Assembly: GCA_016930035.1 (NCBI GenBank)
Contig: JAFGHQ010000096.1
Location: 1 to 47,569, forward strand
Length of the DNA: 47,569 bases
DNA from: Gammaproteobacteria bacterium
GTDB taxonomy: Bacteria; Pseudomonadota; Gammaproteobacteria; UBA12402
Reading direction: 5' to 3'
The translations under genes and the position numbers were made by a program. Of this stretch, positions 9,110 through 24,555 are shown one piece after another. How positions within the stretch are numbered: the first letter of the stretch is position 1; every line of letters starts with the position of its first letter. The notes beneath the pieces were generated by a model, which saw nothing but the letters and a program-made list of their open reading frames with translations, did not search any database and was not told the origin of the DNA.

Positions 9110-9126
9110 CATCATTTATTGCGTCA
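9089..9126. repeat. Degenerate 37-bp palindrome supplying the truB stop
   Basis: tgtgcaacaaatggtgtctgacatcatttattgcgtca; TGA at 9107-9109. Confidence 0.7.
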
Positions 9127-9153
9127 TTTTTTTTAACGAGAATATTAAATATT

Positions 9154-9474
9154 ATGTCGCTGATTATTGAACCTGATGTTGAAGTTTCTATAGCAGAAAT
9201 AGCAGAATCTGAATTAGACGAGAAAAATCATTATGCCGTTTTTTTGTTGTATCATGAAAAAACTCCCATGCTTTTTGTTGTAGAGTTGTTGGAACGTTTT
9301 TTTGATATTTCTCGAGAAACAGCTATTTTAATGACCATGGATATGTATCAATTAAAGCAACCGGTAAAATGTGGTGTTTATTCGCGAATAAAGGCAGAAG
9401 AAAAGAAAAACGCAGTTGAAAAATATGCCAAAGAACATCATCATTTAGTAGAATGTGTCATTAAGCAAGCATAG
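9154..9474 (+). CDS. clpS: ClpS-like adaptor, divergent
   Basis: TPMLFVVELLERFF, CGVYSRIKAEEK; directly upstream of clpA; ATG 9154 preferred because the longer start lies in a repeat. Confidence 0.8.
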   Translation: MSLIIEPDVEVSIAEIAESELDEKNHYAVFLLYHEKTPMLFVVELLERFFDISRETAILMTMDMYQLKQPVKCGVYSRIKAEEKKNAVEKYAKEHHHLVECVIKQA

Positions 9475-9476
9475 GA

Positions 9477-11879
9477 ATGATTATGTCCCCCAAAAACCAG
9501 ACCAAAAAAAATTTTATCGAAGAGCATTTGCTGGATAAAGAATTAGAGTTAACACTGAATTTAGCACTTCAAGATGCAAATCGTGATGGTTATCAATATT
9601 TTACCGTAGAACATTTAATATTAGCTTTATTGGATAATCCGACGGCCGCAGAGATTATTCGCGCTTGTATTTCTGAAGATGAAAGCCTCAGAGTTCAGCT
9701 GAAAAAGTTTATTCGCAAAAACATTCCTTTATTACCTCCAGGAGAATTTATTAAACCAACCTTAGGTGTACAACGTGTTTTACGTAATGCGGTCAAAAGG
9801 GCAGTTGAGCGAAATGCAATGAGGCATTTGACGACAGAAAGCGAAGAAGAAATTCAGCAGCGAGCGAATCGTGAAGAAATTTTATTGGATGGTGGTGCTG
9901 ATGGTGCTGATGTTTTGATTTCTGTTTTTGAAGAAATAGCAAGTCGAGGCGTGATGTTGTTGCAAAAAGCAGGAGTCACGGAAGAAAAAGTTTATAGTTA
10001 TTTTCAAGAAGATCATTTTATCGAAGAAAGAGGGGTACGCGCTATTTCTACAGGGCTTGGGGGCGCTTCTGTTGAAGGGGCCAGTACTGTTGAACCGGTT
10101 AGAGAGGCTCCTCCTAGAATGGCACGCCATGAAGCTTCTACCGAACTTGGGCGATATACTATTAACCTTAATGCAAAAGCAAAAGCAGGTCTTGTTGAGC
10201 CGGTTATAGGCCGGGATGATGAAATTTTACAGGTAATTCAAGTATTGAGCCGTCGTCGTAAAAATAATCCTTTATTAGTAGGTGACCCAGGTGTGGGTAA
10301 AACTGCTATAGCAGAAGGGTTAGCCCAATTAATTATTGAACGGAAAGTTCCCAGACATTTATTGCACAATACTATTTATTCACTCGACGTTGGTGCGCTA
10401 CTCGCTGGGACAAAAATGCGGGGTGAATTTGAGGAGCGCATGACCAAAATTTTAGATGAATTAGCGCAAAATCCCCACGCTATTTTATTTATTGATGAAA
10501 TACATACCATTATTGGAGCGGGAGCGGCTTCAGGCGGTTCTTTAGATATATCCAATTTAATCAAACCCATGTTGGCCTCAGGTGAGCTTAAATGCATAGG
10601 AGCCACCACTTATGAAGAATATCGAACAATTTTTGAAAAGGAAAAAGCGCTCGCCAGACGATTTCAAAAAATTGATGTATCAGAAACTTCAGTGGAACAA
10701 ACAATACAAATACTGCAAGGTGTCAGACGTCGGTTTGAGAAACATCATACCGTGCAATATCTTGACGACGCATTGACGGCAGCCGTTGAATTGTCTAAAC
10801 GGTATATGATGGATCGTTTTCTGCCAGATAAAGCTATTGACATTATCGACGAAGCAGGGGCCTTACATGCGATGTTGCCTGAACCGAAGCGTTCACAACC
10901 GATTGATGCTGATGAGATAGCCTCGGTCATAGCGAAAATTGTTAAAGTTCCTGTCAAAACGTTATCGCGTTCTGATAAATTGATGTTGGCGAGTTTAGAA
11001 GACGATTTAAAAGCCGTGATCTTCGGGCAAGATCAAGCTATTTCCGCTTTAGTTTCAGCGATTAAATTAGCACGTTCCGGTCTGCGCGCAGAGAATAAAC
11101 CGGTGGGTTCATTTTTATTGGCAGGTCCGACAGGAGTGGGCAAGACGGAAGTCACCAAACAATTGTCGGATATTACCGGCATGAAATTGCTGCGTTTTGA
11201 TATGTCGGAATATGCTGAAAAACATACCGTTGCAAGACTCATCGGAGCTCCCCCCGGATACGTTGGATACGAAAAAGGGGGATTATTAACTGATCAGGTC
11301 AATCAATATCCGTATTCCGTTGTTTTGTTAGATGAAATCGAAAAAGCGCATCCGGATATTTATAATTTGCTGCTTCAAGTCATGGATAACGGATTTTTAA
11401 CGGATAGTTTAGGTCGTCATGTGGATTTTCGCCATGCGATACTGATTATGACGACTAATGTAGGTGCGGGCGTTGAGTCTCGAAGAGCAGTCGGGTTTAC
11501 CGCAGAACGAGACACACAAAAAGAAAAAATGGCCGCGATTGGTGAAGTATTTACGCCCGAATTTCGAAATCGACTCGATGCGATTATTCAATTTAAACCG
11601 TTAAGCAAAGAAGTTGTGCAGATGGTTGTCGACAAGCAAATCAAGTTACTTCAAGAGCAGTTAGCCAAACAGAATGTGGTTTTGGAAGTTGATGAAACAG
11701 CACGAATTTGGTTTGCTGAAAACGGATATGATCCTGCTATGGGTGCACGACCCATGGAACGCCTTATTCAGGATAACTTAAAAAAACCGCTTGCTGATGA
11801 ATTGCTATTTGGACGTTTATCAAAAGGCGGAAAGGTTAAAATTTCCGTTAAAGGAGACCAATTGGAATTATCAATGTAA
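9477..11879 (+). CDS. clpA: ATP-dependent Clp protease ATP-binding subunit ClpA
   Basis: [43 protein letters not shown]. Confidence 0.93.
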
Positions 11880-11882
11880 ATT

Positions 11883-11914
11883 GTAGGGGTGAGTCGTGAC
11901 CCGTCCATCCTTAC
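11883..11914. repeat. Degenerate GTAG-type palindrome between convergent clpA and infA
   Basis: gtaggggtgagtcgtgacccgtccatccttac; shares the ccttacgattttt tail with the 2298 copy. Confidence 0.65.
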
Positions 11915-11920
11915 GATTTT

Positions 11921-12187
11921 TTATTCTGCGGGCGCTTCTGGTTTTTCTTCGCCATAGTTTTCTGGTTTGGTTTTATATCGAAATGACACACGTCCCTTGG
12001 TTAGGTCGTAAGGGGATAATTCCACTTTGACATAATCACCTTTAACGATTCGAATGTAATTTTTGCGCATACGCCCTGAAATATGGGCGAGCACCTCATG
12101 ACCATTTTCTAATTTTACGCGAAATGTTGTATTAGGTAGCGTATCTGTTACTACGCCATCCATTTCTATATGATCGCCTTTTGGCAT
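11921..12187 (-). CDS. infA: Translation initiation factor IF-1
   Basis: [36 protein letters not shown]. Confidence 0.97.
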
Positions 12188-12255: not shown

Positions 12256-12292
12256 GATGTAACCTTTGGTGTCAGACACCAAAAGTTACATC
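12256..12292. repeat. 37-bp palindrome supplying the C-terminus and stop of the PAP2 gene
   Basis: gatgtaacctttggtgtcagacaccaaaagttacatc; minus strand reads DVTFGV*. Confidence 0.9.
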
Positions 12293-12937
12293 TATTGTAC
12301 GTTTTGTACACAGGGCTGTTACGGTACCTATGAAACTACCGGTGATTATGTCGCTTAAGAAGTGATAATCCAAAAAGAGCAGAGCAAAGGCCATGAATAA
12401 GATTATAAAGATCCAAAGCCAGCGAAGTTTGGGCAAAAAAATGATGAGAGGAATCATGGCGGCACAGATGACGGTCATGTGGCCTGAGGGGAAAGATGAA
12501 TAAGCTTGCGAACCATGAAACCAATGAAAACCATAAGCATGATCATGAATAAGAGATAGATTATGATGATACCAGGTTTTTGGCCAGTCGCGCCCGCAAT
12601 CATGTTTTAACGCATCGGTAAAAGCATTTGCAATGATGATAGAAAGGCTATAAACCAACAGTCCCGGTTTGAAGTTTGGAAATTTTAGGAATGCTGTTTC
12701 CTGTTGGATAAAAAAATAAACCATAATGCCGATCAAAGACGAGACGTAAATATAAGGTTTTATGTTGGTGAACAAAATAAGAAGATAATTAAACGGTAGT
12801 TGGATTCGGTTGACAAAAAAAGCGATCGGTTTATCCAGAAAATAGTAACTGAATGTAACAAGAAGTATGGTAGCAATAAAACTGATTAAAAGAATTTTAT
12901 AAAAGTTCAAGTTCGGTTTTTTTGTATTATTAATCAT
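12272..12937 (-). CDS. PAP2-family membrane phosphatase
   Basis: K....GRDWP, SFPSGH, HFLSDI; multiple hydrophobic segments. Confidence 0.85.
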
Positions 12938-14045
12938 AATGATACCTTTTAGCGTCAATCGCTCCACCACCTAAGCAAATTTCGCCGTCATAAAAAACTA
13001 CAAATTGGCCCGGTGTAATGGCGCGTTGGGGGTTTTTGAATGTCACTAGCAAAGACAAGTCACGATTTGTCTTTACCGATTGCATTGATATTGTACATTC
13101 TTGGTCCTTTTGACGATAACGTATTTTTGCTGTGCATAGAAATGGTAAGGGTGGGGCATTGCCGCTAATCCACGATAAATGTTTGGCAGTCAGCTGAGGT
13201 GAAAAAAGTTTTGGGTGATCGTGTCCTTGCCCAACCATGAGTACATTCCGGTTTAAATCTTTTTCAAGCACATACCAAGGAGCTTCAATAGCATTCTTTT
13301 TGCCACCAATACCTAGCCCTTGACGCTGGCCAATCGTATAAAACATTAAACCGTCATGTTTGCCAATGATTTTGCCTTGTTCGGTCTCAATATTCCCCGG
13401 TTGAGCAGGCAAATAATGTTCTAGAAAGGTTTTAAATTTCCGCTCACCAATAAAACAAATCCCTGTACTATCTTTTTTTGCCCAATTTTGAAATTCATGT
13501 TCTTTGGCGATGCGGCGTACCTCGGTTTTCGTGAGATTACCTACGGGGAATAAGGCTTTACTGAGTTGATATTGATTCAAGCCATGCAAGAAATAACTTT
13601 GATCTTTGTCGGCATCCATCCCTTTCAAGAGTTGAAATTCGGTTTCTTTTTTTCGGCAGCGCACAAAATGGCCTGTCGCGATAAAGTCAGCCCCAAGTGC
13701 TAAAGCATGGTCTAAAAAAGCTTTGAATTTAATTTGCGTGTTGCATAAAACATCCGGGTTGGGCGTTGCGCCTGATTGGTAGGTATCTAAAAAATAAGTA
13801 AAAACGTTGTCCCAGTACTCGCGCGAAAAATTGACGGTATGTAGCCGAATTCCCAGTTTTAAGCAAATGGTTTGAGCATCTAATAAATCTTGATCGGCTG
13901 AGCAGTTGCTGGGTTCGCCTTCATCTTCTTCCCAATTTTTCATAAACAGCCCTTCAACAGCGTAGCCTTGCTGTTTAAGAAGAAGGGCAGCGACGGAGGA
14001 GTCCACCCCGCCTGACATCCCGACAATGACGCGTTTTGAGTTCAT
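12930..14045 (-). CDS. mnmA: tRNA 2-thiouridine(34) synthase
   Basis: [48 protein letters not shown]. Confidence 0.97.
13049..13076. repeat. GTAG-type palindrome in frame inside mnmA
   Basis: Minus strand gtaaagacaaatcgtgacttgtctttgc = VKTNRDLSL; resembles 38067-38094. Confidence 0.7.
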
Positions 14046-14084
14046 AACAAACCTTGTGTATTTATAGCATAAATAAGATGTATC

Positions 14085-14190
14085 CGTCATTCTGCTGGGA
14101 AGCCAGAATCTAGTTGACAGGGACGTTAAAATTAAATATTCCTGAATTTCTAGAATGACAAAGATTGGATTCTAGATCAAGCTCAGAAAA
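14085..14190. repeat. Degenerate CGTC-type composite repeat
   Basis: Aligns with 5993-6056 including the spacer agttgacagggaygttaaa. Confidence 0.75.
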
Positions 14191-14220
14191 TGATTAATGT
14201 TCAGATTTCAACAGCTCCTT

Positions 14221-15783
14221 TTAATGAGGTGCTCCTAAATGTAGACGAGGTTCCGTAGGCGTAATCCCTAATTGTTTAAAATATTTTTGAGTATCCGCCG
14301 GTAATCGAGCATGTTTAATAGCATATAAAATTTTTTCAGTCATTGCTTTTTGCGCGGAAAGTTTTTGTAAATGAACCGTTTCTAATTTTACATCGGATTT
14401 TAAGCTCGCGATGCCAAATGGGTCTTCTGTGATGAGATGATGAGGCAATGTCATGCTGGCGACGTAGACGGTAATCACACTTAAAAAAGCAGCATTAATA
14501 TCAGATTCCCATGAACGTTTTTTTTGGTCAGCATAGTGTAAAAAGTTTTGAATAGCTTTTTGACATTGTGCTTCATTAAACTCAAGATTGAGCCGTTCGA
14601 TAACAGCTTTGATCATGAGTTCTGCATCGAGCAGCAATAATTCGAATTCTTTGGAAGGGGTGGGAGGTGCAGTTTCTTCCGGCATTTTAGATTCTTTTTC
14701 CCAAAGTGATGCTTCAAATTTTGATTCTAAAATCAAAGCATCAAAACCACTGGTCATCAGCTGATTGATAAAATGGATAAACAATTCGTAAGCAACAAAA
14801 GCGTGCAATACTCCCTTCCCGATGTATTCAAAAAATTCTATTTTATCGAGCATTTTTGATTTTTTTGCATAAAAGAGTTTTTTATGAATAAAAAGATCAA
14901 AAATAGTATTACTCAGTTCAAAATGAATAATCGCTTCATCATATATTTTTCCCGTTTCATGGGCATCATTCATTAGTTTGGTTTCAATGCTTTTAGCTAT
15001 TTTATGAGAAAAATCCATAAGGATTTTATTAAAATCTATTATATATTGAGCATATTTCTCAAAACTTTTTTTCAGCACGTCTTTTTTATGATTTTCCATT
15101 ATTGTAACTTGAAATTTTTTAGAAAAATTTTGTATCCAGGCAGCTTTAATGCTTTGGTCACTATGATCAATATTGCCTTGATAGGATAACTGGAAATTGG
15201 CGGCATCCATAGTGCGTTGTTGGCGTTCTAAGGGCGCAATATAAAGTGATAGTAACTGAACAGCGCGCGCGTGCTTTTTATTTTTTGTGGATTGTTTGAG
15301 CTGTAAAGCAAATTTTCGAATAATATTTTGTACAGCATCAATTTTGGCCATTAAATATTTTTTTTGAAAATCATCTAAGATTAAACAATAAGCTAACTGA
15401 TCCACATCATCCAAAGAACACTGAAAATGCATATATTTTTCGATCAGAGCTGTAGGAAGCGATACATCGCGATCGGGTTTTGAAAAATTGGTTTTTAAAA
15501 ATTCAAAAATTTGATGCGTTTCATTTTTGTGAGTACGCGTTAATTGTTGAAAAGCGTCAGGAGAAACGTGATCTATAACCTTTTCAAGTAGTCTCTTCTC
15601 GGTGAATTTTAATTCAATAGGAATGTGTTGAGTATCCAACAAGATTTTTAGCCATTCGATCTCGATAAAAATTCGGTAATAAAAAAGACCATATTCCGAA
15701 AATAACGTTCGCAATGGCGATAGAATATCGGCATAAAGACTATCAAAAGTAGATAACGCAGTTGTTTCGTTTAAATAAATCAT
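14221..15783 (-). CDS. Adenylosuccinate-lyase-like protein lacking catalytic motifs, with extra C-terminal domain
   Basis: N-terminal ~340 aa align by eye with PurB at 22347-23717; no RTHGQ or SSTMPHK. Confidence 0.75.
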   Translation of the reverse strand: MIYLNETTALSTFDSLYADILSPLRTLFSEYGLFYYRIFIEIEWLKILLDTQHIPIELKFTEKRLLEKVIDHVSPDAFQQLTRTHKNETHQIFEFLKTNFSKPDRDVSLPTALIEKYMHFQCSLDDVDQLAYCLILDDFQKKYLMAKIDAVQNIIRKFALQLKQSTKNKKHARAVQLLSLYIAPLERQQRTMDAANFQLSYQGNIDHSDQSIKAAWIQNFSKKFQVTIMENHKKDVLKKSFEKYAQYIIDFNKILMDFSHKIAKSIETKLMNDAHETGKIYDEAIIHFELSNTIFDLFIHKKLFYAKKSKMLDKIEFFEYIGKGVLHAFVAYELFIHFINQLMTSGFDALILESKFEASLWEKESKMPEETAPPTPSKEFELLLLDAELMIKAVIERLNLEFNEAQCQKAIQNFLHYADQKKRSWESDINAAFLSVITVYVASMTLPHHLITEDPFGIASLKSDVKLETVHLQKLSAQKAMTEKILYAIKHARLPADTQKYFKQLGITPTEPRLHLGAPH

Positions 15784-15797
15784 TTTTTTTGAATTCA

Positions 15798-15834
15798 GAT
15801 GCAACTTTTGGTGTCAGACACCAAAAGTTACATT
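15798..15834. repeat. 37-bp palindrome
   Basis: gatgcaacttttggtgtcagacaccaaaagttacatt. Confidence 0.9.
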
Positions 15835-15841
15835 AAACTGT

Positions 15842-16711
15842 TTACCTCCTAATATTTTTCTTAATTTGATGGCCTAAATCTTCTATCAAATAAGTAATAA
15901 AACCCCATAAATTTTCTTGTTCTAAGCTTTCATTGACTTGTTTCGTCGATAAAAAGCGGCACATTTCTTTTTTAAATTCTGTAGCCATTTTAGGATTTTT
16001 TTTAAGTAATTGTGCTCGCGTATCAAATAAATTTAAAAAAGAATCTGTTGTATGATGTCGATCTTTGAGCTTGTTAGGGATTAATTCTAATCTTGGTTTC
16101 AGTCCTTGTCCGTGCAACCACATTATATCCCACAGATCGCGGTATTTAATTCGATTCTGCCGGAACGAAAAAGCGATTAGCTTATCTGTATAAATTTCCT
16201 CACGGCTTTGTGCTTGTATAATGAGGCCACTGGTACCCATATCCACGCCATAAGGGTTAAGTAGCATCATGGGGCGTTTTTCATAGGAAGGTAATGCACA
16301 AATATCAATATTAATACGTTGAGCAGGCAAATGTTTAGCCTCAGGCCGGGTTTCTATTTTCACTTTCCATGTATCGATGTTTTGTTTATCTCTTATAGGT
16401 TCACTCACAGCTACTTGAAGCTCATATTTATCTTGCAGATTTTTGGTCAATTTCTGTCCCATAAAGGATAAATTATCTCGTGAAAAATCATTGCCCCCAG
16501 TAAAATCCAAATTTTCACTTAACCTTACGCCTCCGTAACAGCAACGGAGACATGATCCTCCTATAAAAGTAAGATGAGAAGTTAAATTAAGGTCTCTCAT
16601 AACTCTCAGTATATCGTGGTGTAACAACTCCTTCTCAACAACTACTCTTAGAGGGGATAAGTTTGGTTGATTTTTTAAAGCCTCTGTTACTAATTGATCA
16701 AATAAATTCAT
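15842..16711 (-). CDS. abiEii: AbiEii-family nucleotidyltransferase toxin (type IV TA)
   Basis: FIGGSCLR..YG..RLSENLDF, DKLIA, RDLWD. Confidence 0.85.
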   Translation of the reverse strand: MNLFDQLVTEALKNQPNLSPLRVVVEKELLHHDILRVMRDLNLTSHLTFIGGSCLRCCYGGVRLSENLDFTGGNDFSRDNLSFMGQKLTKNLQDKYELQVAVSEPIRDKQNIDTWKVKIETRPEAKHLPAQRINIDICALPSYEKRPMMLLNPYGVDMGTSGLIIQAQSREEIYTDKLIAFSFRQNRIKYRDLWDIMWLHGQGLKPRLELIPNKLKDRHHTTDSFLNLFDTRAQLLKKNPKMATEFKKEMCRFLSTKQVNESLEQENLWGFITYLIEDLGHQIKKNIRR

Positions 16712-17246
16712 TTGCAATATCCCAATCTATTAAATCACAATTTCTATGAGTTCTTTTCATATCACTCAAAGCGAGTTTTACACTGGCACGCCATAATCTG
16801 CAATTAGCGTCATAGGAGAGCTGATCCATGATATCTGTTGGCCTGCGGTTGGTATGAATAAATTCTATCGTACCAAACTTGCCGCAAGATACTACGTTAC
16901 TTCGCCCAGATGACATAATTGAAATCCAATGCATAGGTATCTGGGAAATCACTCCCGCATCACTTAAAACTGTCTCAAGGCTGATATAGTTAAATGCGTT
17001 ACTACGCAAGTGGTTTGCAGCATGGAATAACAACAATCCATTTGAACCGATGGTCTTTCCATAAACATAAAGTCCTCGACATACTCGTTCTAAGCATTTG
17101 GTGCGTACAACCCGGGAAAGTAGTGTTTTAAAAGCCGCATCGGACGAATAAGGATAAAGGGCTCGTAAATCTTGAAATGAGAACAAATAATGCTCACTGG
17201 TGGCATTTTGCTGGAGCCAATTGCATAAAGATTTCGTTGGTTGCAT
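16698..17246 (-). CDS. abiEi: AbiEi-family antitoxin
   Basis: N-terminal wHTH-like region with RVCRGLY, YISLETVLSDAGVISQIP; overlaps the toxin start. Confidence 0.85.
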   Translation of the reverse strand: MQPTKSLCNWLQQNATSEHYLFSFQDLRALYPYSSDAAFKTLLSRVVRTKCLERVCRGLYVYGKTIGSNGLLLFHAANHLRSNAFNYISLETVLSDAGVISQIPMHWISIMSSGRSNVVSCGKFGTIEFIHTNRRPTDIMDQLSYDANCRLWRASVKLALSDMKRTHRNCDLIDWDIANEFI

Positions 17247-17257
17247 TAAATGATAAC

Positions 17258-17294
17258 TCTACATTAGGTTTCAATTAGTGTAACCTAATGTAGA
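17258..17294. promoter_or_regulatory. Inverted repeat, probable AbiEi operator
   Basis: tctacattaggtt-N11-aacctaatgtaga, about 11 bp upstream of the abiEi start. Confidence 0.7.
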
Positions 17295-17356
17295 CATAAA
17301 TGCAAGCCAAATCTAGATAGAGTTAGCAATTCACGTGTGTAACGTGGGAATTGCTA

Positions 17357-17373
17357 GTGTCAGACACCAAAGG
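17357..17373. repeat. Partial 37-bp palindrome
   Basis: gtgtcagacaccaaagg. Confidence 0.7.
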
Positions 17374-17623
17374 CTCGTTAACGTGTTCAATATCCTATTT
17401 TGCAGAGGCCTCAATCGTTACACATCGTCAATATAAGCATTTTATAACAAGAAAATGAGTATTAGATACCCATTTTTTTTTTTAATTTTTCGACTATTGT
17501 ATTCATTGAACAAATTTTCAGCAAGTTCAAGCCAAATGACATTTGGTTTTGGGCGGCTGCTCAACTTTTAGTTACCAAGAGAAAGGTAGCTTTGATCTTT
17601 AATCTTTAAGAGGGTAAATAATT

Positions 17624-19681
17624 ATGGCATTTGATTTAACAAAGAAAAAAGAAGAAAAAACAAAATCCAAAATAAGGGAGTTGAAAAATATCTATGTAGA
17701 TTTAGATAGAGCTTCGGAAAAGGAAAGTGTTAAAAAGTTAATGGAAAATTTAGGGACGAAAAAATTACCTTTTGAGAAAAATGATTTATGGTTTGGAGAT
17801 ATGCATGGCAATGTTAAACGGCTTTTATGGTTGCTGTTCTCAATAGAAGGTTTTATCCCAGCAGACATAAACCCAGAGCTATTTGGAGAAGATTTAAAAA
17901 TAGTATGGGAAATTCTAGATAAGCCTTGGGACAAGTTAACAATAGAAGATTTAGCAATGGTGAGCGAATTTTTCAAAAACTCAATTAATCGGGATTTTAA
18001 TAGCGAAATAAATTTTCTAGGAGATGTGTTGGGTGACCGGGGATGGAATTATAAAAAACGAGCAGAAGATAGAGAAAGTAGTGGTGGAATAGAGAGGTTT
18101 AAAGTTGGCAATGATATATTTTCATTCTTATTATTAGAAAGTTTAAGTCAGTCAGGCAAATTGGGCAGTTTTATTATGGGTAATCATGAATCAGCTATTC
18201 TATTTTTGTTATGGACTATGAAAAATTTAGAAAAAAAGGAATTTAATGAGCTCTGGTCAAAAGGTGGACTTTCTTCGGGTATCGGTGAAATTGACAGCGC
18301 TCAATTCCTGACTGGAATAAATTTCGCTAAATTATTTTTAGAACTTGGTTGTTTATATGAGGAAAAAGAAGCATGGGGAAATAGAATTTTTAAGTTTTTA
18401 AAGGAACATGGACGATTTTCGGATCAACGTATGTACTTTGATGATGAAACAGGATCCTTGAGATTGACTCATGGGCAACATACCCCATTTTCCAGTGGCG
18501 AAAGGTTACGATCTCCATTGAAGTCTACCATGTTTGATAGCAGGATGCTTTCTAAAAGTATTCGTGGTGTATTTCAACGCGATAAGAATTTCGAAGCTTT
18601 TCTTGAAGAAATGTCTCGCTGGCCACTTGAAAAATTTCATAGCAATTTTACTCCTCGTGTCGAGGATTCCTGGGGGGGGTGTTTCTCGCTGAGGAAAAAA
18701 CCAAAAGAGAAAAAAGATAACATATCACCCCTGGCCTATTTTTTATGGTTTGGAACTCCTAACATTAAAGAATGTAAAGATGTTACGTTTTCTCAGCCTT
18801 TTTTTGGCAGTACAGCTGAGATTTGTTTTAAATGTATGTTCAAAGATACCTTTTGGCTTTCAGCACATGTTGGTGAATCTTATTTTCGTATTACAGAAGA
18901 CAAAACAGATAGCACAAGAGCAATACGTATCGGTTTAGATGTCCCGATTGGGAAATTGGGAGGTGTTCAGGAAGTAGGGAAAATACCATCTTTCGTTATA
19001 GATGGGGCAAAACGAGTTAAAGAAGAGAGACTAAATCAATTTATAGAGTTTTTTGATAGGTTAAATCGTTATTTAAGTACTTTTAAAGAAGAAATTGGAA
19101 AAGCAACATATGGAACTTCTGGTGAATACAAAGAATTATTAGATAAAACTTTGCAAACCATCCGTGAAAGAGCAAGTAAAACTTTGGTTGAAATTTTTCC
19201 AGAATTGGACGTGAAAAGGATCATAACTAATCTTTTAAGAGCGTTAAAAGAGCACCTCTTAAATATGATTGAGGAGAGGGTCAGAAAAGAAAAAAAATCT
19301 TCGGAGAAGAAGGAGATATTAGGGTGGATATCGAGAGAACAGCATGAAGAAAGAAAGCAAAGAAATCCTTCTTTTTGGGCAAAAAAAGGAACCGAGAAAA
19401 GAGAAATTAAAACAATCGTTACTGCAGAAAGAGCATCTGAATTTTGGAAAAAAGCACTAGCAGCGCAAGAAGGAACCGAGGAAAGCGAAATTAAAAGGAT
19501 CGTTACTGAAGAAAAAGCATCAAAAGCATCTGAATTTTTGGAAGAAGCACCAGTTGAATTTTTGGAAGAAGCACCAGTAGCGGAGGCAGAAGACGAGGGG
19601 GAAATGGAGGAAACGGAGGAGACAATTGAAACAGAAACTGAAGAAGAGTTCGATACGACAAAAAGACTCTTGTTCCATTAA
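17624..19681 (+). CDS. PPP/calcineurin-like metallophosphoesterase domain protein, candidate secreted effector
   Basis: GDMHGN, GDVLGDRG, GNHE, THG motifs; Glu-rich C-terminus. Confidence 0.75.
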   Translation: MAFDLTKKKEEKTKSKIRELKNIYVDLDRASEKESVKKLMENLGTKKLPFEKNDLWFGDMHGNVKRLLWLLFSIEGFIPADINPELFGEDLKIVWEILDKPWDKLTIEDLAMVSEFFKNSINRDFNSEINFLGDVLGDRGWNYKKRAEDRESSGGIERFKVGNDIFSFLLLESLSQSGKLGSFIMGNHESAILFLLWTMKNLEKKEFNELWSKGGLSSGIGEIDSAQFLTGINFAKLFLELGCLYEEKEAWGNRIFKFLKEHGRFSDQRMYFDDETGSLRLTHGQHTPFSSGERLRSPLKSTMFDSRMLSKSIRGVFQRDKNFEAFLEEMSRWPLEKFHSNFTPRVEDSWGGCFSLRKKPKEKKDNISPLAYFLWFGTPNIKECKDVTFSQPFFGSTAEICFKCMFKDTFWLSAHVGESYFRITEDKTDSTRAIRIGLDVPIGKLGGVQEVGKIPSFVIDGAKRVKEERLNQFIEFFDRLNRYLSTFKEEIGKATYGTSGEYKELLDKTLQTIRERASKTLVEIFPELDVKRIITNLLRALKEHLLNMIEERVRKEKKSSEKKEILGWISREQHEERKQRNPSFWAKKGTEKREIKTIVTAERASEFWKKALAAQEGTEESEIKRIVTEEKASKASEFLEEAPVEFLEEAPVAEAEDEGEMEETEETIETETEEEFDTTKRLLFH

Positions 19682-19750
19682 TTGACAGTGATTTTAGGCT
19701 AATTTTAGTGCTTGCCCGAAACTGATGTGAATTAGTATTAAGGCTCGTTT

Positions 19751-20593
19751 TTAAACAAGGTCTCGGTGGCGGACGGCGACATTTTTACGTTTTTTAGCGA
19801 AATAATCCTTTAATTTTTGAGCTAAATAAACCGAGCGGTGTCGCCCCCCCGTGCACCCGATCGAAATCGTTAAATATTTCCGATTTTCTGCCTCAAAAGC
19901 AGGGAGCCAAATTTCAATGAAATTTTTAAGCATTTCAAACATCGCTTGAACTTGCGGGTAATCGTTCAAATAATCGACAATAGCAGGATCGTTGCCGGGC
20001 AAGTCACGCAGATTTTTTTCCCAATAAGGGTTGGGTAGGCAACGCACATCGAAAGTAAAATCAGTATCAATCGGTAACCCATGTTTGTACCCAAAAGATT
20101 GGAATAGCAAAGAAAGATTAACCCCTTCCTTTTTAAAACGTGTTTTAATTAATTCTCGTAGTTCATGAACGTTAAGCCAAGTCGTGTCAACCTGTAAATC
20201 AGCTTGGTCAATAATAGGTTGTAGTAATTTTTTTTCAGCAGCCAGCGCTTCTTTTAAATGAATGATCTCGCTTGTCAGAGGATGTTTGCGGCGCGTTTCA
20301 CTAAAACGATTGAGTAAAACATTTTCGTCCGCATTCACAAAAACGATTTCATAATCTATGTGATTTTCTTTTAGATAAGAAAGCACGCGTTCGAGATTTT
20401 CTAAATCCCCTGTCAAATTACGTGCGTCAATACTAATGGCAAGGTCTTGATCAAGCGTTTGAAATTTTTGAGCAAGGTCGGGCAATAAATCGAGCGGTAA
20501 ATTATCAACACAGTAATACCCCATGTCTTCTAAGACATTAAGCGTGACACTTTTCCCAGAGCCTGATCGGCCGCTAATAATAATGAGTTTCAT
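19751..20593 (-). CDS. rapZ: RNase adapter RapZ
   Basis: SGRSGSGKS, CVDNLP, SETRRKHP, FDVRCLPNP, GCTGGRHRS. Confidence 0.95.
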   Translation of the reverse strand: MKLIIISGRSGSGKSVTLNVLEDMGYYCVDNLPLDLLPDLAQKFQTLDQDLAISIDARNLTGDLENLERVLSYLKENHIDYEIVFVNADENVLLNRFSETRRKHPLTSEIIHLKEALAAEKKLLQPIIDQADLQVDTTWLNVHELRELIKTRFKKEGVNLSLLFQSFGYKHGLPIDTDFTFDVRCLPNPYWEKNLRDLPGNDPAIVDYLNDYPQVQAMFEMLKNFIEIWLPAFEAENRKYLTISIGCTGGRHRSVYLAQKLKDYFAKKRKNVAVRHRDLV

Positions 20594-20626
20594 AAAAAAG
20601 TTCGAAAGTTCTATCCAGTTTAATTT

Positions 20627-21988
20627 TTAGGGTTTAATCACCACAAATCCAGCACCTTCCCCTCGAAATATATTTAAAAGCAAACCAGTTTTACTCGGTT
20701 TTTCAGCAATTTTTTCTAGCTCTTTGATATTTTTAACGGGTTGCTGATTCGCGGAGACAACAATGTCTCCCGGTCTTAATCCAGCAATCCAAGCAACACT
20801 GTAAGGGTCGACATCTGATATTTTAACACCTTCAACATAACCATGTTTTGGTGATTGTTCCCCTGTGTTTTTCATACTGATACCATTCAAATAAGGGCTC
20901 GTATAAAGCTGTTCTGTAGACACAGGATCCGCTGTCTTGAACGAAAAATCCATGGTTTTATTATTGCGTAAAATCCTCAAATTAACGGATTGCCCTGCAC
21001 GGACGAGGCTAATGGTGTTATGCACATCGCCACTGGTTTGAATGCGTTGCTGATTCAAATAAGTAATGATATCCCCCGTTTTAAGTCCTGCTTTCTCGGC
21101 AGGCGAATTGGGCATAATTTGTGCAATAATGGCTCCTTTCGTATGAGGAATGTTAAACGCATCCGCCAAATCAGGGGTTAATGTTTGAACCAAAACGCCC
21201 ATTAATCCACGGTGTACTTTGCCATACAAGATGATTTGCTGAATGATGCTTTTTACCATATTAGCGGGTATTGCAAATCCAATACCAATATTTCCCCCAT
21301 TCGAAGATAACAAAGCAGTGTTAATCCCTACTAGTTGGCCTTGAATATTCACTAATGCGCCACCTGAATTGCCCATATTGATAGGCGCATCCGTTTGGAT
21401 AAAGTTTTCAACGCTTTCAATCCCTAGCCCCGTTCGGTGTAAACCACTTACAATACCTGAGGTGACTGTTTGATCTAATCCAAATGGGCTACCAATTGCC
21501 GCAACAAAATCACCCACTTCAACGTCATTTGAATTGGCAAAAGGGATGGCTGTTAAATGATCGGCATGAATTTGCAAAACGGCAATATCACTCACATCAT
21601 CAGTCCCGACGGTTTCTGCTTCATAACGGCGACCGTCATTAAGGGTAATCGTTATCGTTTTGGATTGATCAATGACATGAGCATTGGTCACAATGAGCCC
21701 TTGTTTGGCATCAATAATAACCCCCGACCCCACGCTGGTGAAATGCCGCTTCTCAGGGAGGCGACTGCCGCGCATACGTTCCAATTCGCGTCTTAAAAAA
21801 GGATCGGTAATAAAAGAAAATTCACCTTGGCAAACAATATTGACGACAGCAGGCATGGCGTTTTGCAGCATTATGTGCATTTGTTTTTGTACTGAAATGG
21901 GTAACTCAGCTGTAGAGATCAACGGAAAAAGAGATAAAATAAAGAACGCAAAAATAAAGATCGTACAAAAATGAAATAATTTTTTCAT
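20627..21988 (-). CDS. DegP/DegQ (Do family) serine endoprotease
   Basis: TNAHV, IQTDAPINMGNSGG, two PDZ domains, signal peptide. Confidence 0.93.
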   Translation of the reverse strand: MKKLFHFCTIFIFAFFILSLFPLISTAELPISVQKQMHIMLQNAMPAVVNIVCQGEFSFITDPFLRRELERMRGSRLPEKRHFTSVGSGVIIDAKQGLIVTNAHVIDQSKTITITLNDGRRYEAETVGTDDVSDIAVLQIHADHLTAIPFANSNDVEVGDFVAAIGSPFGLDQTVTSGIVSGLHRTGLGIESVENFIQTDAPINMGNSGGALVNIQGQLVGINTALLSSNGGNIGIGFAIPANMVKSIIQQIILYGKVHRGLMGVLVQTLTPDLADAFNIPHTKGAIIAQIMPNSPAEKAGLKTGDIITYLNQQRIQTSGDVHNTISLVRAGQSVNLRILRNNKTMDFSFKTADPVSTEQLYTSPYLNGISMKNTGEQSPKHGYVEGVKISDVDPYSVAWIAGLRPGDIVVSANQQPVKNIKELEKIAEKPSKTGLLLNIFRGEGAGFVVIKP

Positions 21989-22064
21989 ATCGCAGCACCC
22001 AAAAAGTTTTAAAAATGATTGGAAATCATAAGCATCTCAAGGTTTAATTGCAATGAAATAAAAT

Positions 22065-22089
22065 GATGTAACTTTTGGTGTCTGACACC
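22065..22089. repeat. Truncated 37-bp palindrome abutting an RBS
   Basis: gatgtaacttttggtgtctgacacc followed by tgagga. Confidence 0.8.
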
Positions 22090-22103
22090 TGAGGATTTTT
22101 GTC

Positions 22104-22274
22104 ATGGATCCAACGTTTCTTGAAATTTTAGCTTGTCCGATATGTAAAGGTCGACTGCTTTATGATCCCAAAAATAACGAGCTCATTTGTCGGTTCGATA
22201 AACTTGCTTACCCCATCCGCAATGACATTCCTATCATGATTTTCGAAGAAGCCCGCCATATTGACGAAAACTAA
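22104..22274 (+). CDS. Trm112-like (YcaR/UPF0434) protein, 56 aa, absent from the ORF track
   Basis: MDPTFLEILACPICKGRLLYD...LAYPIRNDIPIMIFEEARHIDEN; RBS gagga. Confidence 0.9.
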   Translation: MDPTFLEILACPICKGRLLYDPKNNELICRFDKLAYPIRNDIPIMIFEEARHIDEN

Positions 22275-22300
22275 TAAGGGCGCAGACCTGCGCCCTTTAC
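22275..22300. repeat. GTAG-type palindrome / possible terminator hairpin
   Basis: taagggcgcagacctgcgccctttac. Confidence 0.6.
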
Positions 22301-22346
22301 TTTTGATGTCTTATCAAATCCAGCACGACGACATAAATGAATCTCA

Positions 22347-23717
22347 TTATTTCGATAATTGAACCGCTAGGCCTAAATAATTTTTAGGTGTGAGGTTTTT
22401 GAGTTCAAGTTTAACGGGCTTTGGTAGATCGAGCTGGTCAATAAATTGATGCAGCATTTGCTGCGTGATTTTTTTGCCGCGTGTAAAGGTTTTGAGCTTT
22501 TCATAAGCTTGTTCGATGCCATGTTTTCGCATTACCGTTTGAATGGGTTCTGCTAGAATTTCCCAGTGGTCGTTTAGGTCTTTTGAAATGCACTCTAAAT
22601 TTGGCGTGAGTTGGTTTAATCCTTTTTCTATGGATTGATAGCTTAAAATGCTGTGGGCAAAAGCTACTCCCACGTTACGTAAAACCGTTGAGTCAGATAG
22701 GTCGCGTTGAAAGCGCGAGATCGGGAGTTTATTAGCAAAATGTTGGAATAGGGCATTGCTTAATCCGAGATTGCCTTCAGCATTTTCAAAGTGAATCGGA
22801 TTAATTTTATGCGGCATCGTGGACGAGCCGACGGTTTTTTTGTCTACTTTTTGATCAAAATAATTCAATGAAATGTATCCCCAAATATCACGGCAAAAAT
22901 CGATCAAAATCGTATTAAACCGCATCATGGCGTGCGAAAGCTCAGCAATATCATCATGCGGCGCGATCTGAGTTGTGTGCGAGCTAAAATTTAGTCCCAA
23001 TCGTTCAATAAATTTTTGATTGATTTTATCCCAAGCAATATTGGGATAAGCCGCCACATGAGCATTATAATTCCCCACGGCGCCATTAAATTTGGCCATG
23101 ATATGGATTGCTTCAATTTGTTCTTTTTGACGATTCAGTCGATGCACAAAATTGGCGAATTCTTTCCCGAGCGTTGTGGGAGTTGCTGGTTGGCCATGCG
23201 TTCTTGAAAGCATAGAAATTTGAGCAAATTGTTTGGCTAATTTTTGAATCAACGCAATAAGTGAACTGATGTTTTTTAATAAAATGTCTTTTCGAAAGTC
23301 ATTCAAAATTAACGCATAAGCGGTGTTATTAATATCTTCTGAAGTGCACGCGAAATGCACAAATTCTGTAGGGACAGGTCGCGACCTGTCCTGGGTGTTT
23401 TTTTGTAGAACCTCTTTCAAAAAATATTCAACAGCTTTGACATCGTGATGAGTCGTTTTCTCGATTGCTTTAATTTTTTTCGCTTCATTGATGGAAAAAT
23501 GTTGAATCCAATTGTCTAAAAATTGATTGGTTTTAGCATCGAGCTTGGGTAGTTCTTTGATATCGGAAAGATTCGCCAAAAATTGCAACCAGCGGATTTC
23601 GACTAATAATCGGTATTTGATCAATGAGCATTCGCTAAAAAAGCGACGCAAATCTTTTAAAACATCGCCATAACGCCCATCAATGGGGGAAATAGCAGAA
23701 AGCATATTGAGTTCCAT
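22347..23717 (-). CDS. purB: Adenylosuccinate lyase
   Basis: SPIDGRY, HDVKAVEY, HFACTSEDIN, RTHGQPA, GSSTMPHKINP, QRDLSDS. Confidence 0.97.
   Translation of the reverse strand: MELNMLSAISPIDGRYGDVLKDLRRFFSECSLIKYRLLVEIRWLQFLANLSDIKELPKLDAKTNQFLDNWIQHFSINEAKKIKAIEKTTHHDVKAVEYFLKEVLQKNTQDRSRPVPTEFVHFACTSEDINNTAYALILNDFRKDILLKNISSLIALIQKLAKQFAQISMLSRTHGQPATPTTLGKEFANFVHRLNRQKEQIEAIHIMAKFNGAVGNYNAHVAAYPNIAWDKINQKFIERLGLNFSSHTTQIAPHDDIAELSHAMMRFNTILIDFCRDIWGYISLNYFDQKVDKKTVGSSTMPHKINPIHFENAEGNLGLSNALFQHFANKLPISRFQRDLSDSTVLRNVGVAFAHSILSYQSIEKGLNQLTPNLECISKDLNDHWEILAEPIQTVMRKHGIEQAYEKLKTFTRGKKITQQMLHQFIDQLDLPKPVKLELKNLTPKNYLGLAVQLSK
23368..23391. repeat. GTAG-type palindrome in frame inside purB
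   Basis: gtagggacaggtcgcgacctgtcc (20-bp perfect palindrome), read on minus as QDRSRPVPT. Confidence 0.9.
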
Positions 23718-23831
23718 AAGGTTCCTCTTACATATCAATACATTTTACGGAAATTGCAAAACAAGTAAAGCCCTTATCCAAAACCGCCCCCGAGATTCTC
23801 ATTTTATTTGTGCAATAATTCAGCTAACATT

Positions 23832-23868
23832 GATGTAACCTTTGGTGTCAGACACCATTTGTTACATC
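23832..23868. repeat. 37-bp palindrome
   Basis: gatgtaacctttggtgtcagacaccatttgttacatc. Confidence 0.9.
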
Positions 23869-23902
23869 AACTCTGATTGAATCATTTATGGCGATAGGAC
23901 CC

Positions 23903-24519
23903 ATGACAGATAAAAATAATCAAAAGCAAAAAGGCGAGATTGTTATTTATAAATCTCCTGATGGATCAGAGATCCAAGTAAGACTTAACGAAGAATCTGT
24001 TTGGTTGGATGCGCATTTGATAGCAAAAATTTTTGGCGTTCAGCGCCCGGCTGTTGTAAAGCATATTCATAATATTTACAAAACCAGCGAATTAGACGAA
24101 AAATTAACCTGTTCCATTTTGGAACAAGTTGCCAAGGATGAAAAAAACAGAAAAATGAATTTATATAATTTAGATGTGATTATTTCTGTCGGTTACCGTG
24201 TTAATTCTCAAAAGGCTACGCAGTTTCGTATTTGGGCCACTAAAATTTTAAAGCAATACCTGGTCAAAGGGTACGCTGTTAATGAAGAACGGCTTTTGGA
24301 GGCCGGAAACAGGCTCAATGAATTACAAGAAGCCATTCTATTTTTACAGAAACAATCTCAAAAAGCATTGTTGAAAAGACAGGAAATAGAAATTCTAAAT
24401 TTATTGGGTGATTACTCCAAGACACTTTCATTGCTTGAGACACTTTGTTGATAGCAGGAAGTGATCCAAAGGATAAGGAAATCATGGTGAAAATCATAAA
24501 AAATTTGCTTATAGAATAG
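23903..24519 (+). pseudogene. RhuM-family (RhuM-Fic type) gene with apparent internal deletion and frameshift
   Basis: YNLDVIISVGYRVNSQKATQFRIWAT RhuM motif; stop at 24451; out-of-frame tail TLLIAGSDPKDKEIMVKIIKNLLIE* ends at 24519. Confidence 0.7.
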
Positions 24520-24555
24520 ATGCAACTTTTGGTGTCAGACACCAAAGGTTACATC
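24519..24555. repeat. 37-bp palindrome
   Basis: gatgcaacttttggtgtcagacaccaaaggttacatc. Confidence 0.9.

What the first reader, a model, noticed from the sequence alone, without database searches (positions are those of the whole stretch)
15798..24555. Accessory genes bracketed by 37-bp palindromes: possible repeat-bounded gene cassette system
Seen: the rhuM-like gene is tightly enclosed by full copies in the same orientation (23832-23868 and 24519-24555; the second overlaps its remnant stop). The abiEi-abiEii operon with its operator lies between a full copy 7 bp past the toxin stop (15798-15834) and a partial copy (17357-17373). Both modules interrupt core-type neighbourhoods, with no integrase, transposase or visible target duplication. 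Inference: the palindrome may act as a recombination or HUH-cleavage site that captures or mobilises TA/defence genes as cassettes. This is my best candidate for an undescribed system; the catalysing enzyme is not visible here.
Basis: partly seen in the sequence, partly recalled or inferred. Interest (0 to 1): 0.8.

Follow-up and report, generated by a model that had tools for sequence, protein, structure and literature searches.

The report
Dispersed hairpin repeats, not gene cassettes
The 37-base palindromes are copies of a small hairpin repeat scattered through this genome, of a kind tied elsewhere to a single-strand-DNA transposase, and they sit beside housekeeping genes as often as accessory ones, so this is ordinary selfish DNA and not a new gene-capture system.

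Summary
The list was selective. The same window holds more copies that bracket clpS-clpA-infA, PAP2-mnmA and purB. The 1.31-Mb genome holds 46 well-kept copies (54 at a looser cut-off).

Of 21 intervals of 6 kb or less between consecutive copies, most hold housekeeping genes.

Copies fill short spacers, often supply the neighbouring gene's stop codon, and lie in frame inside truB and ribF.

A near-identical palindrome occurs 16-80 times in each of five Ilumatobacteraceae genomes. In four of them it flanks a single Y1/HUH transposase gene on both sides. This is the TIRYT/TIRtron design, also called RAYT group 1 or TnpA_REP subclass 2.1 (PMC3733652, PMC6006769).

This genome's only such gene lies on another contig and is boxed by a different repeat. 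The local mobiliser is therefore unresolved.

This scan has already reported TIRYT-hairpin systems on other DNA.

Verdict: new member of a known kind, low to moderate interest.

The parts
8952..8988 (.). Full palindrome copy lying in frame inside truB (peptide [13 protein letters not shown])
   Evidence: Alignment A2 shows a 4-residue net insertion relative to three relatives.
9089..9125 (.). Degenerate copy whose central TGA is the truB stop codon
12256..12292 (.). Full copy between infA and the PAP2 gene. The PAP2 ORF (minus strand) ends at the central TGA of the copy.
   Evidence: distance -20.
15798..15834 (.). Full copy, 7 bp beyond the AbiEii stop. It borders the upstream end of the 527-aa lyase-like ORF.
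17356..17373 (.). Partial copy (core plus part of the right arm) upstream of the AbiEi-like gene
22065..22089 (.). Partial copy (left arm plus core) between the degP-like gene and purB
23832..23868 (.). Full copy (two mismatches in the right arm) between purB and the rhuM fragment
24519..24555 (.). Full copy between the rhuM fragment and hpt
15842..17246 (-). AbiEii toxin gene (15842-16717) and AbiEi-like antitoxin gene (16698-17246), lying between a full and a partial copy
   Evidence: Pfam PF08843 at E 1.8e-24; PF19570 and PF13338 weak. Only weak homologues in 3 of 13 family genomes.
23888..24451 (+). Truncated rhuM-like ORF (187 aa; matches positions 3-110 of the 252-position Pfam profile), lying between two full copies
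   Evidence: Homologues in relatives have open frames of about 325-348 aa, in 7 of 13 family genomes.
22347..23738 (-). purB, a core gene lying between a partial and a full copy
   Evidence: Present in 13 of 13 family genomes.
9088..12187 (.). clpS, clpA (+) and infA (-), core genes lying between two full copies
12272..15804 (-). PAP2 phosphatase, mnmA and a 527-aa purB-like ORF, lying between two full copies

Best explanation
The 37-bp palindrome (consensus GATGYAAC-YTTTGGTGTCWGACACCAAAR-GTTRCATC) is a non-autonomous hairpin repeat of the REP/TIR type. It is a short DNA stem-loop that has been copied into spacers and gene ends all over this small gammaproteobacterial genome. By analogy with REP/RAYT and IS200/IS605 biology, such hairpins form on single-stranded DNA. 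A Y1 HUH tyrosine transposase recognises and cuts them, and they are re-inserted without target duplication. This mechanism is inferred and not shown here.

Shown here: the family is dispersed and mostly intergenic. It abuts or supplies stop codons and sometimes lies in frame inside genes. A near-identical palindrome boxes a single-copy TIRYT-type Y1 gene in Ilumatobacteraceae, and related variants do so in other phyla.

The apparent bracketing of AbiE and rhuM follows from a local cluster of copies in which nearly every transcription unit, core or accessory, has a copy at its ends. In this genome the enzyme that moved the copies is not identified. The only TIRYT gene (contig C54) is boxed by a different repeat. 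The family is therefore either moved in trans or is a relic of a lost or unassembled cognate gene.
For: Copy number:
- 42 exact 17-mer cores occur in G000, against 0 in 13 genomes of the same family.
- 54 copies fit the 35-nt model with 6 or fewer substitutions, and 46 with 3 or fewer.

Location:
- 41 of 54 copies lie outside crude ORFs, although about 85% of the genome is ORF.
- Among 39 copies with genes on both sides, 24 are in tandem, 9 in divergent and 6 in convergent spacers.
- That matches the shares of spacer length (60, 27 and 14%), as expected of insertions and not of terminators.
- Recurrent ORF-end offsets of -1, -6 and -20 show that stop codons lie within the element or overlap its first or last base.

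Structure:
- The copies form hairpins.
- Position pair 4/32 is T-A in 19, C-G in 18 and mismatched in 9 of 46 copies.

In-frame copies: truB and two in ribF.

Intervals between copies: of 21 intervals of 6 kb or less, 19 hold ORFs.
- At least 10 hold housekeeping genes: clpS-clpA-infA; mnmA; rapZ-degP; purB; guaA; ybeY; ABC-F; ahcY; rpe; tdk-deoC-deoD-cdd.
- Clearly accessory content is seen in 3-4: AbiE, the rhuM fragment, AAA_14/DUF4143 and APH+GNAT.

Enzyme link:
- Five Ilumatobacteraceae genomes hold 80, 54, 16, 51 and 47 cores.
- In 4 of these 5 genomes a 267-289-aa Y1 gene has the palindrome on both sides.
- In the fifth it has a full copy on one side and a degenerate half on the other.
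- GGGGTCWGACCCC-type and GGTGTC-type variants flank homologues in Acidimicrobiales, two Gammaproteobacteria and others.
- G000 has one homologue, 39-40% identical over about 180 aa, with E about 1e-48.
- That homologue carries Y1_Tnp, a DnaA-C-like HTH and the motif YIHLNP.

Literature (passages read):
- PMC3733652 describes TIRYT genes flanked by TIRs that share GGGGWSAS. Some TIRs are self-complementary and form dispersed families.
- PMC6006769 equates subclass 2.1, RAYT group 1 and TIRYT, with a Bac_DnaA_C-like C-terminus.
Against: In G000 itself the only TIRYT gene is not flanked by this palindrome. Contig C54 has no copy even at 4 mismatches. The gene is boxed by inverted doublets of another repeat.

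Only 6 of the 80 best genome contigs homologues of the TIRYT alignment have a GGKGTCWGACMCC palindrome within 1.2 kb.

Two Bacillota genomes carry the core repeatedly. One has a homologue with no palindrome within 1.5 kb (L172). In the other no homologue was found with this query.

No empty site, excision product or recent insertion was observed. No genome or metagenome contig closer than about 60% purB identity was found.

High conservation of copies could also reflect selection for a host function.

Gene calls were crude longest-ORF calls, so offsets at 5' ends are artefacts of ORF extension.
Confidence: 0.8

Rival explanations
1. One reading: paired palindromes are recombination or cleavage sites that define mobile cassettes carrying TA/defence genes. 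This would resemble integron attC cassettes or Xer/dif modules.
For: AbiE lies between a full and a partial copy, and the rhuM fragment lies between two full copies. Both gene families are patchy among relatives. The window holds the densest cluster of copies in the genome: 5 full copies in 15.6 kb against 0.55 expected.
Against: Most intervals between paired copies hold housekeeping genes on either strand. vapBC, MNT/HepT and the virB island in the same window have no copy at their borders. The paralogous rhuM (C30) and AbiEii-like (C59) genes have no copy on their contigs. The only tyrosine-recombinase locus (C20) has none either. The element is a 37-bp near-perfect hairpin. It lacks the attC features recalled from the literature: length 57-141 bp, extrahelical bases and RYYYAAC/GTTRRRY ends. 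Copies also lie in frame inside truB and ribF.
Confidence: 0.04
2. The palindromes are host-functional elements kept by selection and are not mobile DNA. Possible roles are transcription terminators, mRNA 3' stabilisers, or binding sites of a dimeric DNA-binding protein.
For: Many copies lie within 10 nt of a stop codon. The stems are stable. The copies are very uniform, with paired changes in the stem. The 19-bp core is the same in distant phyla while the outer stems differ.
Against: Copies are as frequent in divergent (promoter-only) spacers as spacer length predicts: 9 of 39 against 27%. No T-run follows the stem in the copies read. Copies lie inside coding sequence. Both orientations occur, with central A in 27 and T in 19 copies. 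G-T and C-A mismatches are equally common, so no one transcribed strand is favoured. The family is absent from all 13 genomes of the same family. The same palindrome boxes a transposase gene elsewhere. No Rfam family matches.
Confidence: 0.1
3. The family is an immobile relic. Its cognate Y1 gene has been lost from this reduced genome, and the copies persist only because deletions are slow or harmful where they supply stop codons.
For: No flanked Y1 gene was found in the 93%-complete assembly. Truncated and degenerate copies exist, at 17356-17373, 22065-22089 and 9089-9125. Gene loss leaving orphan REP families is discussed in PMC6006769 (passage read).
Against: 30 of the 54 copies fit the degenerate 35-nt model without any mismatch, which suggests recent spread or constraint. 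About 7% of the genome is unassembled, and repeats tend to break contigs (one search shows contigs ending in the copies). The resident TIRYT shares the GGKGTCA motif with this family.
Confidence: 0.3

Closest known systems
TIRtron / TIRYT repeat families (Di Nocera et al. 2013, PMC3733652; passages read). Equated with TnpA_REP subclass 2.1 and RAYT group 1 (Quentin et al. 2018, PMC6006769; Bertels et al. 2017, PMC5581495; passages read).
   Same: The Y1 HUH gene is longer than classical RAYTs and has a C-terminal DnaA-C-like HTH. It is boxed by inverted repeats that can be wholly self-complementary and also occur as moderately abundant dispersed families. The published TIR motif GGGGWSAS fits the GGGGTCAG variants exactly and fits GGTGTCAG here at 7 of 8 positions.
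   Different: In this genome the 37-bp family is not next to the resident TIRYT gene, which is boxed by another repeat. The density (about 35 copies per Mb) is high for a 1.3-Mb genome. Quentin et al. reported finding no REP-like sequence near subclass 2.1 genes, whereas clear hairpins flank such genes in the Ilumatobacteraceae loci seen here.
Classical REP/RAYT and REPIN systems (E. coli and Pseudomonas; PMC3116915 and PMC3337134 seen in a search listing; PMC6006769 passages read)
   Same: Short extragenic hairpins in tens of copies. A single-copy Y1 gene is flanked by them. There is no target duplication. Occasional copies lie in frame inside genes.
   Different: There is no GT[AG]G tetranucleotide at the foot; the foot here is GATG...CATC. 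The copies are mostly singlets and not REPIN doublets. The enzyme clade is different.
Rickettsia palindromic elements (recalled from Ogata et al. 2000; not read here)
   Same: Palindromic repeats in a reduced genome, inserted in frame into housekeeping genes and translated.
   Different: As recalled, RPEs are about 100-150 bp and have no known associated transposase. The sequences are unrelated.
Integron attC cassettes and Xer/dif modules (recalled)
   Same: Short imperfect palindromes at the borders of accessory genes, including TA modules. The AAC...GTT ends faintly recall attC core sites.
   Different: No integron integrase is present. No co-oriented promoterless array is seen. Housekeeping genes are bracketed. 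The length and symmetry are wrong for attC or for a 28-bp dif site.

Membership tests
TIRYT/TIRtron repeat family | Y1 HUH tyrosine transposase of the TIRYT type (HuH and Y---NP motifs, long protein, C-terminal HTH) | tested here: met
   G000 C54 protein of 334 aa: PF01797 at E 1e-11; NF047646 at 61 bits (below the 80-bit cut-off); DnaA-C-like region at residues 218-320; NHYH and YIHLNP motifs. The Ilumatobacteraceae proteins are 267-289 aa with NHYH and YIHRNP.
TIRYT/TIRtron repeat family | The gene is boxed by inverted copies of the repeat | tested here: inconclusive
   Met for this palindrome in 4 of 5 Ilumatobacteraceae genomes, with one side only in the fifth. Met for variants in L170, L173, L175, L240, L268 and L279. 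Not met in G000, where the gene is boxed by another repeat and C54 holds no copy.
TIRYT/TIRtron repeat family | TIR motif GGGGWSAS | tested here: inconclusive
   The core GGTGTCAG fits 7 of 8 positions. The GGGGTCAG variants in other genomes fit 8 of 8. The motif is taken from PMC3733652.
TIRYT/TIRtron repeat family | The repeat is dispersed as a family in the genome | tested here: met
   46-54 copies in G000. 16-80 cores per Ilumatobacteraceae genome.
Classical REP/RAYT (REPIN) | GT[AG]G guide tetranucleotide at the 5' foot of the hairpin | tested here: not met
   The flanks read (T)(T)GATG...CATC(A)(A). No GTAG or GTGG is present. A separate GTAG-tagged 20-bp palindrome family does exist in the window.
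Classical REP/RAYT (REPIN) | Copies organised as inverted doublets (REPINs) | tested here: not met
   Only 2 of 21 neighbouring pairs are closer than 300 bp: C89 at 92 bp and C52 at 265 bp.
Classical REP/RAYT (REPIN) | Cleavage and transposition of the hairpin by the Y1 enzyme | not testable with these tools
   Needs biochemistry or population sequencing.
Integron gene cassettes | IntI-type tyrosine recombinase with attI and a co-oriented cassette array | tested here: not met
   The only PF00589 matches lie on C20, which has no palindrome. The bracketed genes lie on both strands and include housekeeping genes.
Integron gene cassettes | attC architecture (57-141 bp, imperfect, extrahelical bases, RYYYAAC/GTTRRRY) | tested here: not met
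   The element is a 37-bp near-perfect hairpin with a 3-nt loop. ATGYAAC/GTTRCAT fails the Y/R pattern at one position per arm. The attC definition is recalled, not read here.

The most novel reading that the evidence does not exclude
The 37-bp family has no cognate boxed gene in this genome, and the sole TIRYT is boxed by an unrelated-looking repeat that shares only GGKGTCA. One TIRYT may therefore service two repeat families in trans. Clusters of its hairpins (this window holds the densest in the genome) may also act as fragile or recombinogenic spots where accessory modules such as AbiE and rhuM are gained, truncated or lost. More broadly, the 19-bp core TTTGGTGTCWGACACCAAA is kept across at least six phyla while the outer stems vary. 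It would then be the conserved recognition hairpin of a cross-phylum clade of group-1 RAYTs, for which no DNA substrate has been defined biochemically.
Probability: 0.12. Interest if true: 0.55.

Novelty: new member of a known kind. Interest (0 to 1): 0.3.

Why it matters
It removes a tempting false lead. Bracketing by palindromes is not evidence of a cassette system when the palindrome is a dispersed repeat family.

It also documents a dense TIR/REP-type hairpin family in a reduced 1.3-Mb gammaproteobacterial genome. Copies supply stop codons and are translated inside truB and ribF.

It ties the same core hairpin to TIRYT-type Y1 genes in distant phyla. TIRYT (RAYT group 1) enzymes have no defined DNA substrate in the passages I read. 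Quentin et al. found no REP-like sequence near them. A conserved hairpin that boxes such genes is therefore a concrete candidate substrate for an in-vitro test.

Tried and rejected
Empty-site test, not possible:
- The closest genomes held are other genera, with purB at 60% identity or less. purB is not next to hpt within 1.5 kb in 11 of them.
- The single metagenome-contig scan with purB gave nothing above 58% identity.

Read evidence:
- Only the probable source run and one other run of the same study were offered. Both are held as contigs.
- Joints at palindrome ends (15834 to 22061; 12291 to 24560) have sides of 31 nt or less. I read them as contigs running through repeat copies, not as excision products.

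Scans that found nothing:
- The strict 35-nt G000-type pattern in genome contigs: 0.
- Viral contigs for the 19-bp core: 0.
- Rfam with permissive thresholds: no family at the palindromes. The only match was a sub-threshold STnc40 hit at 22273-22332.
- Full-text search for the 13-mer and 11-mer cores: only unrelated primer matches.
- PDB sequence search with the G000 TIRYT: nothing.

Other rejected ideas:
- GC content does not set AbiE or rhuM apart from their neighbours.
- attC and dif readings were rejected on anatomy (see the membership tests).
- Terminator reading: no bias against divergent spacers.

Limits:
- Supplementary files of the three papers were not available. TIR sequences in Figure 9 and Additional file 5 of PMC3733652, and REP lists in PMC6006769, may already include this core.

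Full report
**Observation.**
- The 17-base core TTGGTGTCAGACACCAA with up to two mismatches occurs at seven places in the window. It occurred in none of 100 dinucleotide-preserving shuffles.
- Each of the five full copies folds as a 16-17 bp DNA hairpin with a 3-nt loop, at -11.5 to -16.1 kcal/mol and z -5.7 to -8.5.
- The same window also has full copies at 8952-8988 and 12256-12292, a partial copy at 22065-22089 and a degenerate copy at 9089-9125.

**Gene map of the region** (Pfam):
- truB, with a palindrome in frame.
- clpS, clpA, infA.
- A palindrome that supplies the PAP2 stop.
- PAP2, mnmA and a 527-aa purB-like ORF.
- A palindrome.
- AbiEii and an AbiEi-like gene.
- A partial copy.
- A 685-aa unknown ORF, rapZ and a degP-like gene.
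- A partial copy.
- purB.
- A palindrome.
- A truncated rhuM.
- A palindrome.
- hpt, vapBC, virB2/3/4/8/9/10, MNT/HepT, then truA, accD, folC.

From 8.9 to 24.6 kb nearly every transcription unit, core or accessory, has a copy at its border. Beyond 24555 there is no copy. The vapBC and MNT/HepT modules and the virB island have none at their borders.

**Genome-wide picture.** The window is contig C18 of a 1.31-Mb, 114-contig assembly. It has 37.9% G+C and is 93% complete.
- A 35-nt model finds 54 copies with six or fewer substitutions and 46 with three or fewer. The exact 17-mer occurs 42 times.
- With a crude longest-ORF gene call (1093 ORFs, 85% of the bases), 41 of 54 copies lie outside ORFs.
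- Of the 39 copies with a gene on each side, 24 are in tandem, 9 in divergent and 6 in convergent spacers. That is the same split as spacer length: 60, 27 and 14%.
- ORF ends fall repeatedly at offsets -1, -6 and -20 from the element. These correspond to a TGA overlapping its first base, the TAA in ATGTAAC and the central TGA. Many genes therefore stop inside or against a copy.
- Offsets at 5' ends are artefacts of ORF extension.
- The 13 copies inside crude ORFs include real in-frame cases. In truB the peptide [13 protein letters not shown] gives a net four-residue insertion against three relatives (alignment A2).
- In ribF there are two copies, each read as LMQHLVSDTK, at loop positions where five relatives have gaps (alignment A1).

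**Test of the cassette idea.**
- Of 21 intervals of 6 kb or less between consecutive copies, 19 hold ORFs.
- At least ten hold housekeeping genes: clpS-clpA-infA; PAP2-mnmA; rapZ-degP; purB; guaA plus a phosphoribosyltransferase; ybeY; an ABC-F ATPase; ahcY; rpe plus a TerB-DnaJ protein; hsp20-tdk-deoC-deoD-cdd.
- One further interval holds pilin-like (N_methyl) genes, which I count as core-like but not as housekeeping.
- Clearly accessory content is seen in three or four intervals: AbiE, the rhuM fragment, an AAA_14/DUF4143 ATPase, and APH plus a GNAT-kinase. The rest are mixed or unknown.
- AbiEii and rhuM are indeed patchy among the 13 genomes of the family. AbiEii has only weak hits in 3, and rhuM has hits in 7.
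- Their paralogues in this same genome (rhuM on C30, an AbiEii-like gene on C59) lie on contigs without any copy, even at four mismatches.
- The only tyrosine-recombinase locus (C20) has none either.
- The bracketing of AbiE and rhuM is thus explained by a local cluster of copies. The window holds 5 full copies in 15.6 kb against 0.55 expected, the densest cluster in the assembly.

**What the palindrome is.**
- It is absent from all 13 genomes of the same family. The strict G000-type pattern is absent from the other species genomes held.
- A looser pattern found a near-identical palindrome, (AT)GTAACGTTTGGTGTCWGACACCAAACGTTAC(AT), in many contigs of Ilumatobacteraceae MAGs. These are Actinomycetota with 61-69% G+C.
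- Five such genomes hold 80, 54, 16, 51 and 47 exact cores.
- A Pfam Y1_Tnp search of those five genomes, followed by a motif scan of the loci, gave the enzyme link. In four of them a 267-289-aa Y1 gene has the palindrome on both sides, about 870 bp apart: L105, L109, L111 and L087.
- In L105 and L109 the gene's stop codon lies in the downstream copy.
- In the fifth genome a full copy lies downstream, and only a degenerate GGTGTCAC piece lies upstream.
- At one copy per about 55-280 kb, such flanking cannot be chance. The five genomes are related, however, so they count as one or a few events.

**Independent support from variants and other phyla.**
- Homologues in an Acidimicrobiales MAG, two Gammaproteobacteria and four further loci are flanked by GGGGTCWGACCCC or GGTGTC-type palindromes.
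- The 19-bp core with non-G/C neighbours also occurs in Bacillota, Planctomycetota, Chlamydiota, Acidobacteriota, Spirochaetota, Beta- and Gammaproteobacteria. The outer stems differ but remain complementary.
- By my own estimate about two such hits were expected by chance; 55 loci were found.

**The enzyme clade.**
- G000 has exactly one homologue, C54:15296-16300 on the minus strand, 334 aa.
- It is 39-40% identical over about 180 residues to the boxed Ilumatobacteraceae proteins, with E about 1e-48.
- It has Y1_Tnp, a weak Bac_DnaA_C/DnaA-like C-terminal region, and the motifs NHYH and YIHLNP. It scores below cut-off on NCBIfam's REP-associated tyrosine transposase model.
- These traits fit what Quentin et al. 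2018 (PMC6006769, passages read) call TnpA_REP subclass 2.1. They equate it with RAYT group 1 of Bertels et al. 2017 (PMC5581495, passages read) and with the TIRYTs of Di Nocera et al. 2013 (PMC3733652, passages read).
- Di Nocera et al. describe TIRYT genes boxed by inverted repeats that share GGGGWSAS. Some are self-complementary and form moderately abundant dispersed families.
- GGGGTCAG fits that motif, and GGTGTCAG fits seven of eight positions.
- Quentin et al. wrote that they found no REP-like sequence near subclass 2.1 genes. The loci here show that at least some members are boxed by clean hairpins.

**Limits of the enzyme link.**
- In G000 the TIRYT gene is not next to the 37-bp palindrome, and C54 has no copy.
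- It is boxed by inverted doublets of another repeat, GGGGTCAAAYCSCGTTTTACGTTTT. That repeat has 34 copies and also sits at both ends of the window.
- Only 6 of the 80 best homologues in genome contigs have a GGKGTCWGACMCC palindrome within 1.2 kb.
- Two Bacillota genomes that carry the core repeatedly did not show a boxed gene with my query.
- The class of the element is therefore well supported. Who moves it in this genome is open: trans-action of the resident TIRYT, a cognate gene in the unassembled 7%, or a lost gene.

**Mechanism.**
- Shown: the repeats are dispersed, form hairpins and are mostly extragenic.
- Shown: stem pair 4/32 co-varies, with T-A in 19, C-G in 18 and mismatches in 9 of 46 copies.
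- Shown: G-T and C-A mismatches are about equally frequent and both orientations occur (A 27, T 19). This gives no sign of selection on one transcribed strand.
- Shown: there is no target duplication.
- Inferred from IS200/IS605 and E. coli TnpA_REP work, as summarised in PMC6006769: the hairpin forms on single-stranded DNA, a Y1 HUH enzyme binds and cuts it, and copies spread.
- Not shown: any cleavage, any insertion polymorphism, or any role in moving neighbouring genes.

**What could not be done.**
- No sister genome or contig closer than about 60% purB identity exists in the collections. Empty sites could therefore not be examined.
- The only runs offered are held as contigs. Their joints at palindromes are repeat artefacts.
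- Rfam, the viral contigs and a full-text search for the core gave nothing.
- Supplementary files of the papers were closed, so the core may already be listed there.

**Earlier notes of this scan.**
- Earlier notes report many TIRYT-hairpin systems in other genomes. One states that a hairpin loop sequence is conserved across phyla.
- No earlier window shares this exact stretch.
- A note on this genome pointed me to PMC6006769.

**Verdict.** The cassette interpretation is not supported. The element is a new member of the known TIRYT/REP-type hairpin repeat families. Interest is low to moderate.

Noticed in passing
window 8952-8988 and 9089-9125: truB carries one palindrome in frame (peptide [13 protein letters not shown]) and ends at the central TGA of a second, degenerate copy. 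Its last residues are therefore repeat-encoded.
   Followed up: yes
G000 C52:7021-7055 and 7321-7355 (L181): ribF holds two in-frame copies, each read as LMQHLVSDTK, at loop positions where five relatives have gaps. A further copy lies inside a 618-aa hydrolase/TrmB-like ORF at C89:28680-28714.
   Followed up: partly
window 23357-23391: A different, GTAG-tagged 20-bp perfect palindrome (a canonical REP) lies in frame inside purB and is read as QDRSRPVPT, a net 3-residue insertion against relatives. Other copies lie at 2287-2321 and 38056-38090.
   Followed up: partly
window 35-86 and 47219-47325; G000 C54:15215-15303 and 16689-16777: A third repeat family (GGGGTCAAAYCSCGTTTTACGTTTT, 34 copies, mostly in about 64-bp doublets) sits at both ends of the window. 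As inverted doublets it boxes the genome's only TIRYT gene.
   Followed up: partly
window 14221-15804 (-): A 527-aa ORF with no Pfam match is a distant purB paralogue (27% identity, E 3e-24). It lies next to mnmA, where at least one relative (L010) has purB itself. The true purB lies 6.5 kb away.
   Followed up: no
window 25290-32726: A partial VirB-type secretion cluster (virB2, 3, 4, 8, 9, 10) lies between hpt and truA. It has vapBC at one end and an MNT/HepT pair at the other. No palindrome copy is present.
   Followed up: no
G000 C96:14840-14867, and C15, C41, C67, C74, C93, C100, C111: There is a longer nested form in which the core is doubled (GGTGTCAGACAC, 3-5 nt, GTGTCTGACACC) inside the same outer arms. 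The short form could arise from it by collapse, or the long form from the short one by duplication.
   Followed up: no
window 17260-17292: An inverted repeat TACATTAGGTT(11 nt)AACCTAATGTA lies just upstream of the AbiEi-like gene.
   Followed up: no
window 5953-6146 and 19383-19577: Three tandem 33-bp units (6048-6146), plus a fourth related copy 95 bp upstream (5953-5985), lie upstream of a pilin-like gene. There are also internal repeats of about 84-93 bp inside the 685-aa unknown ORF.
   Followed up: no
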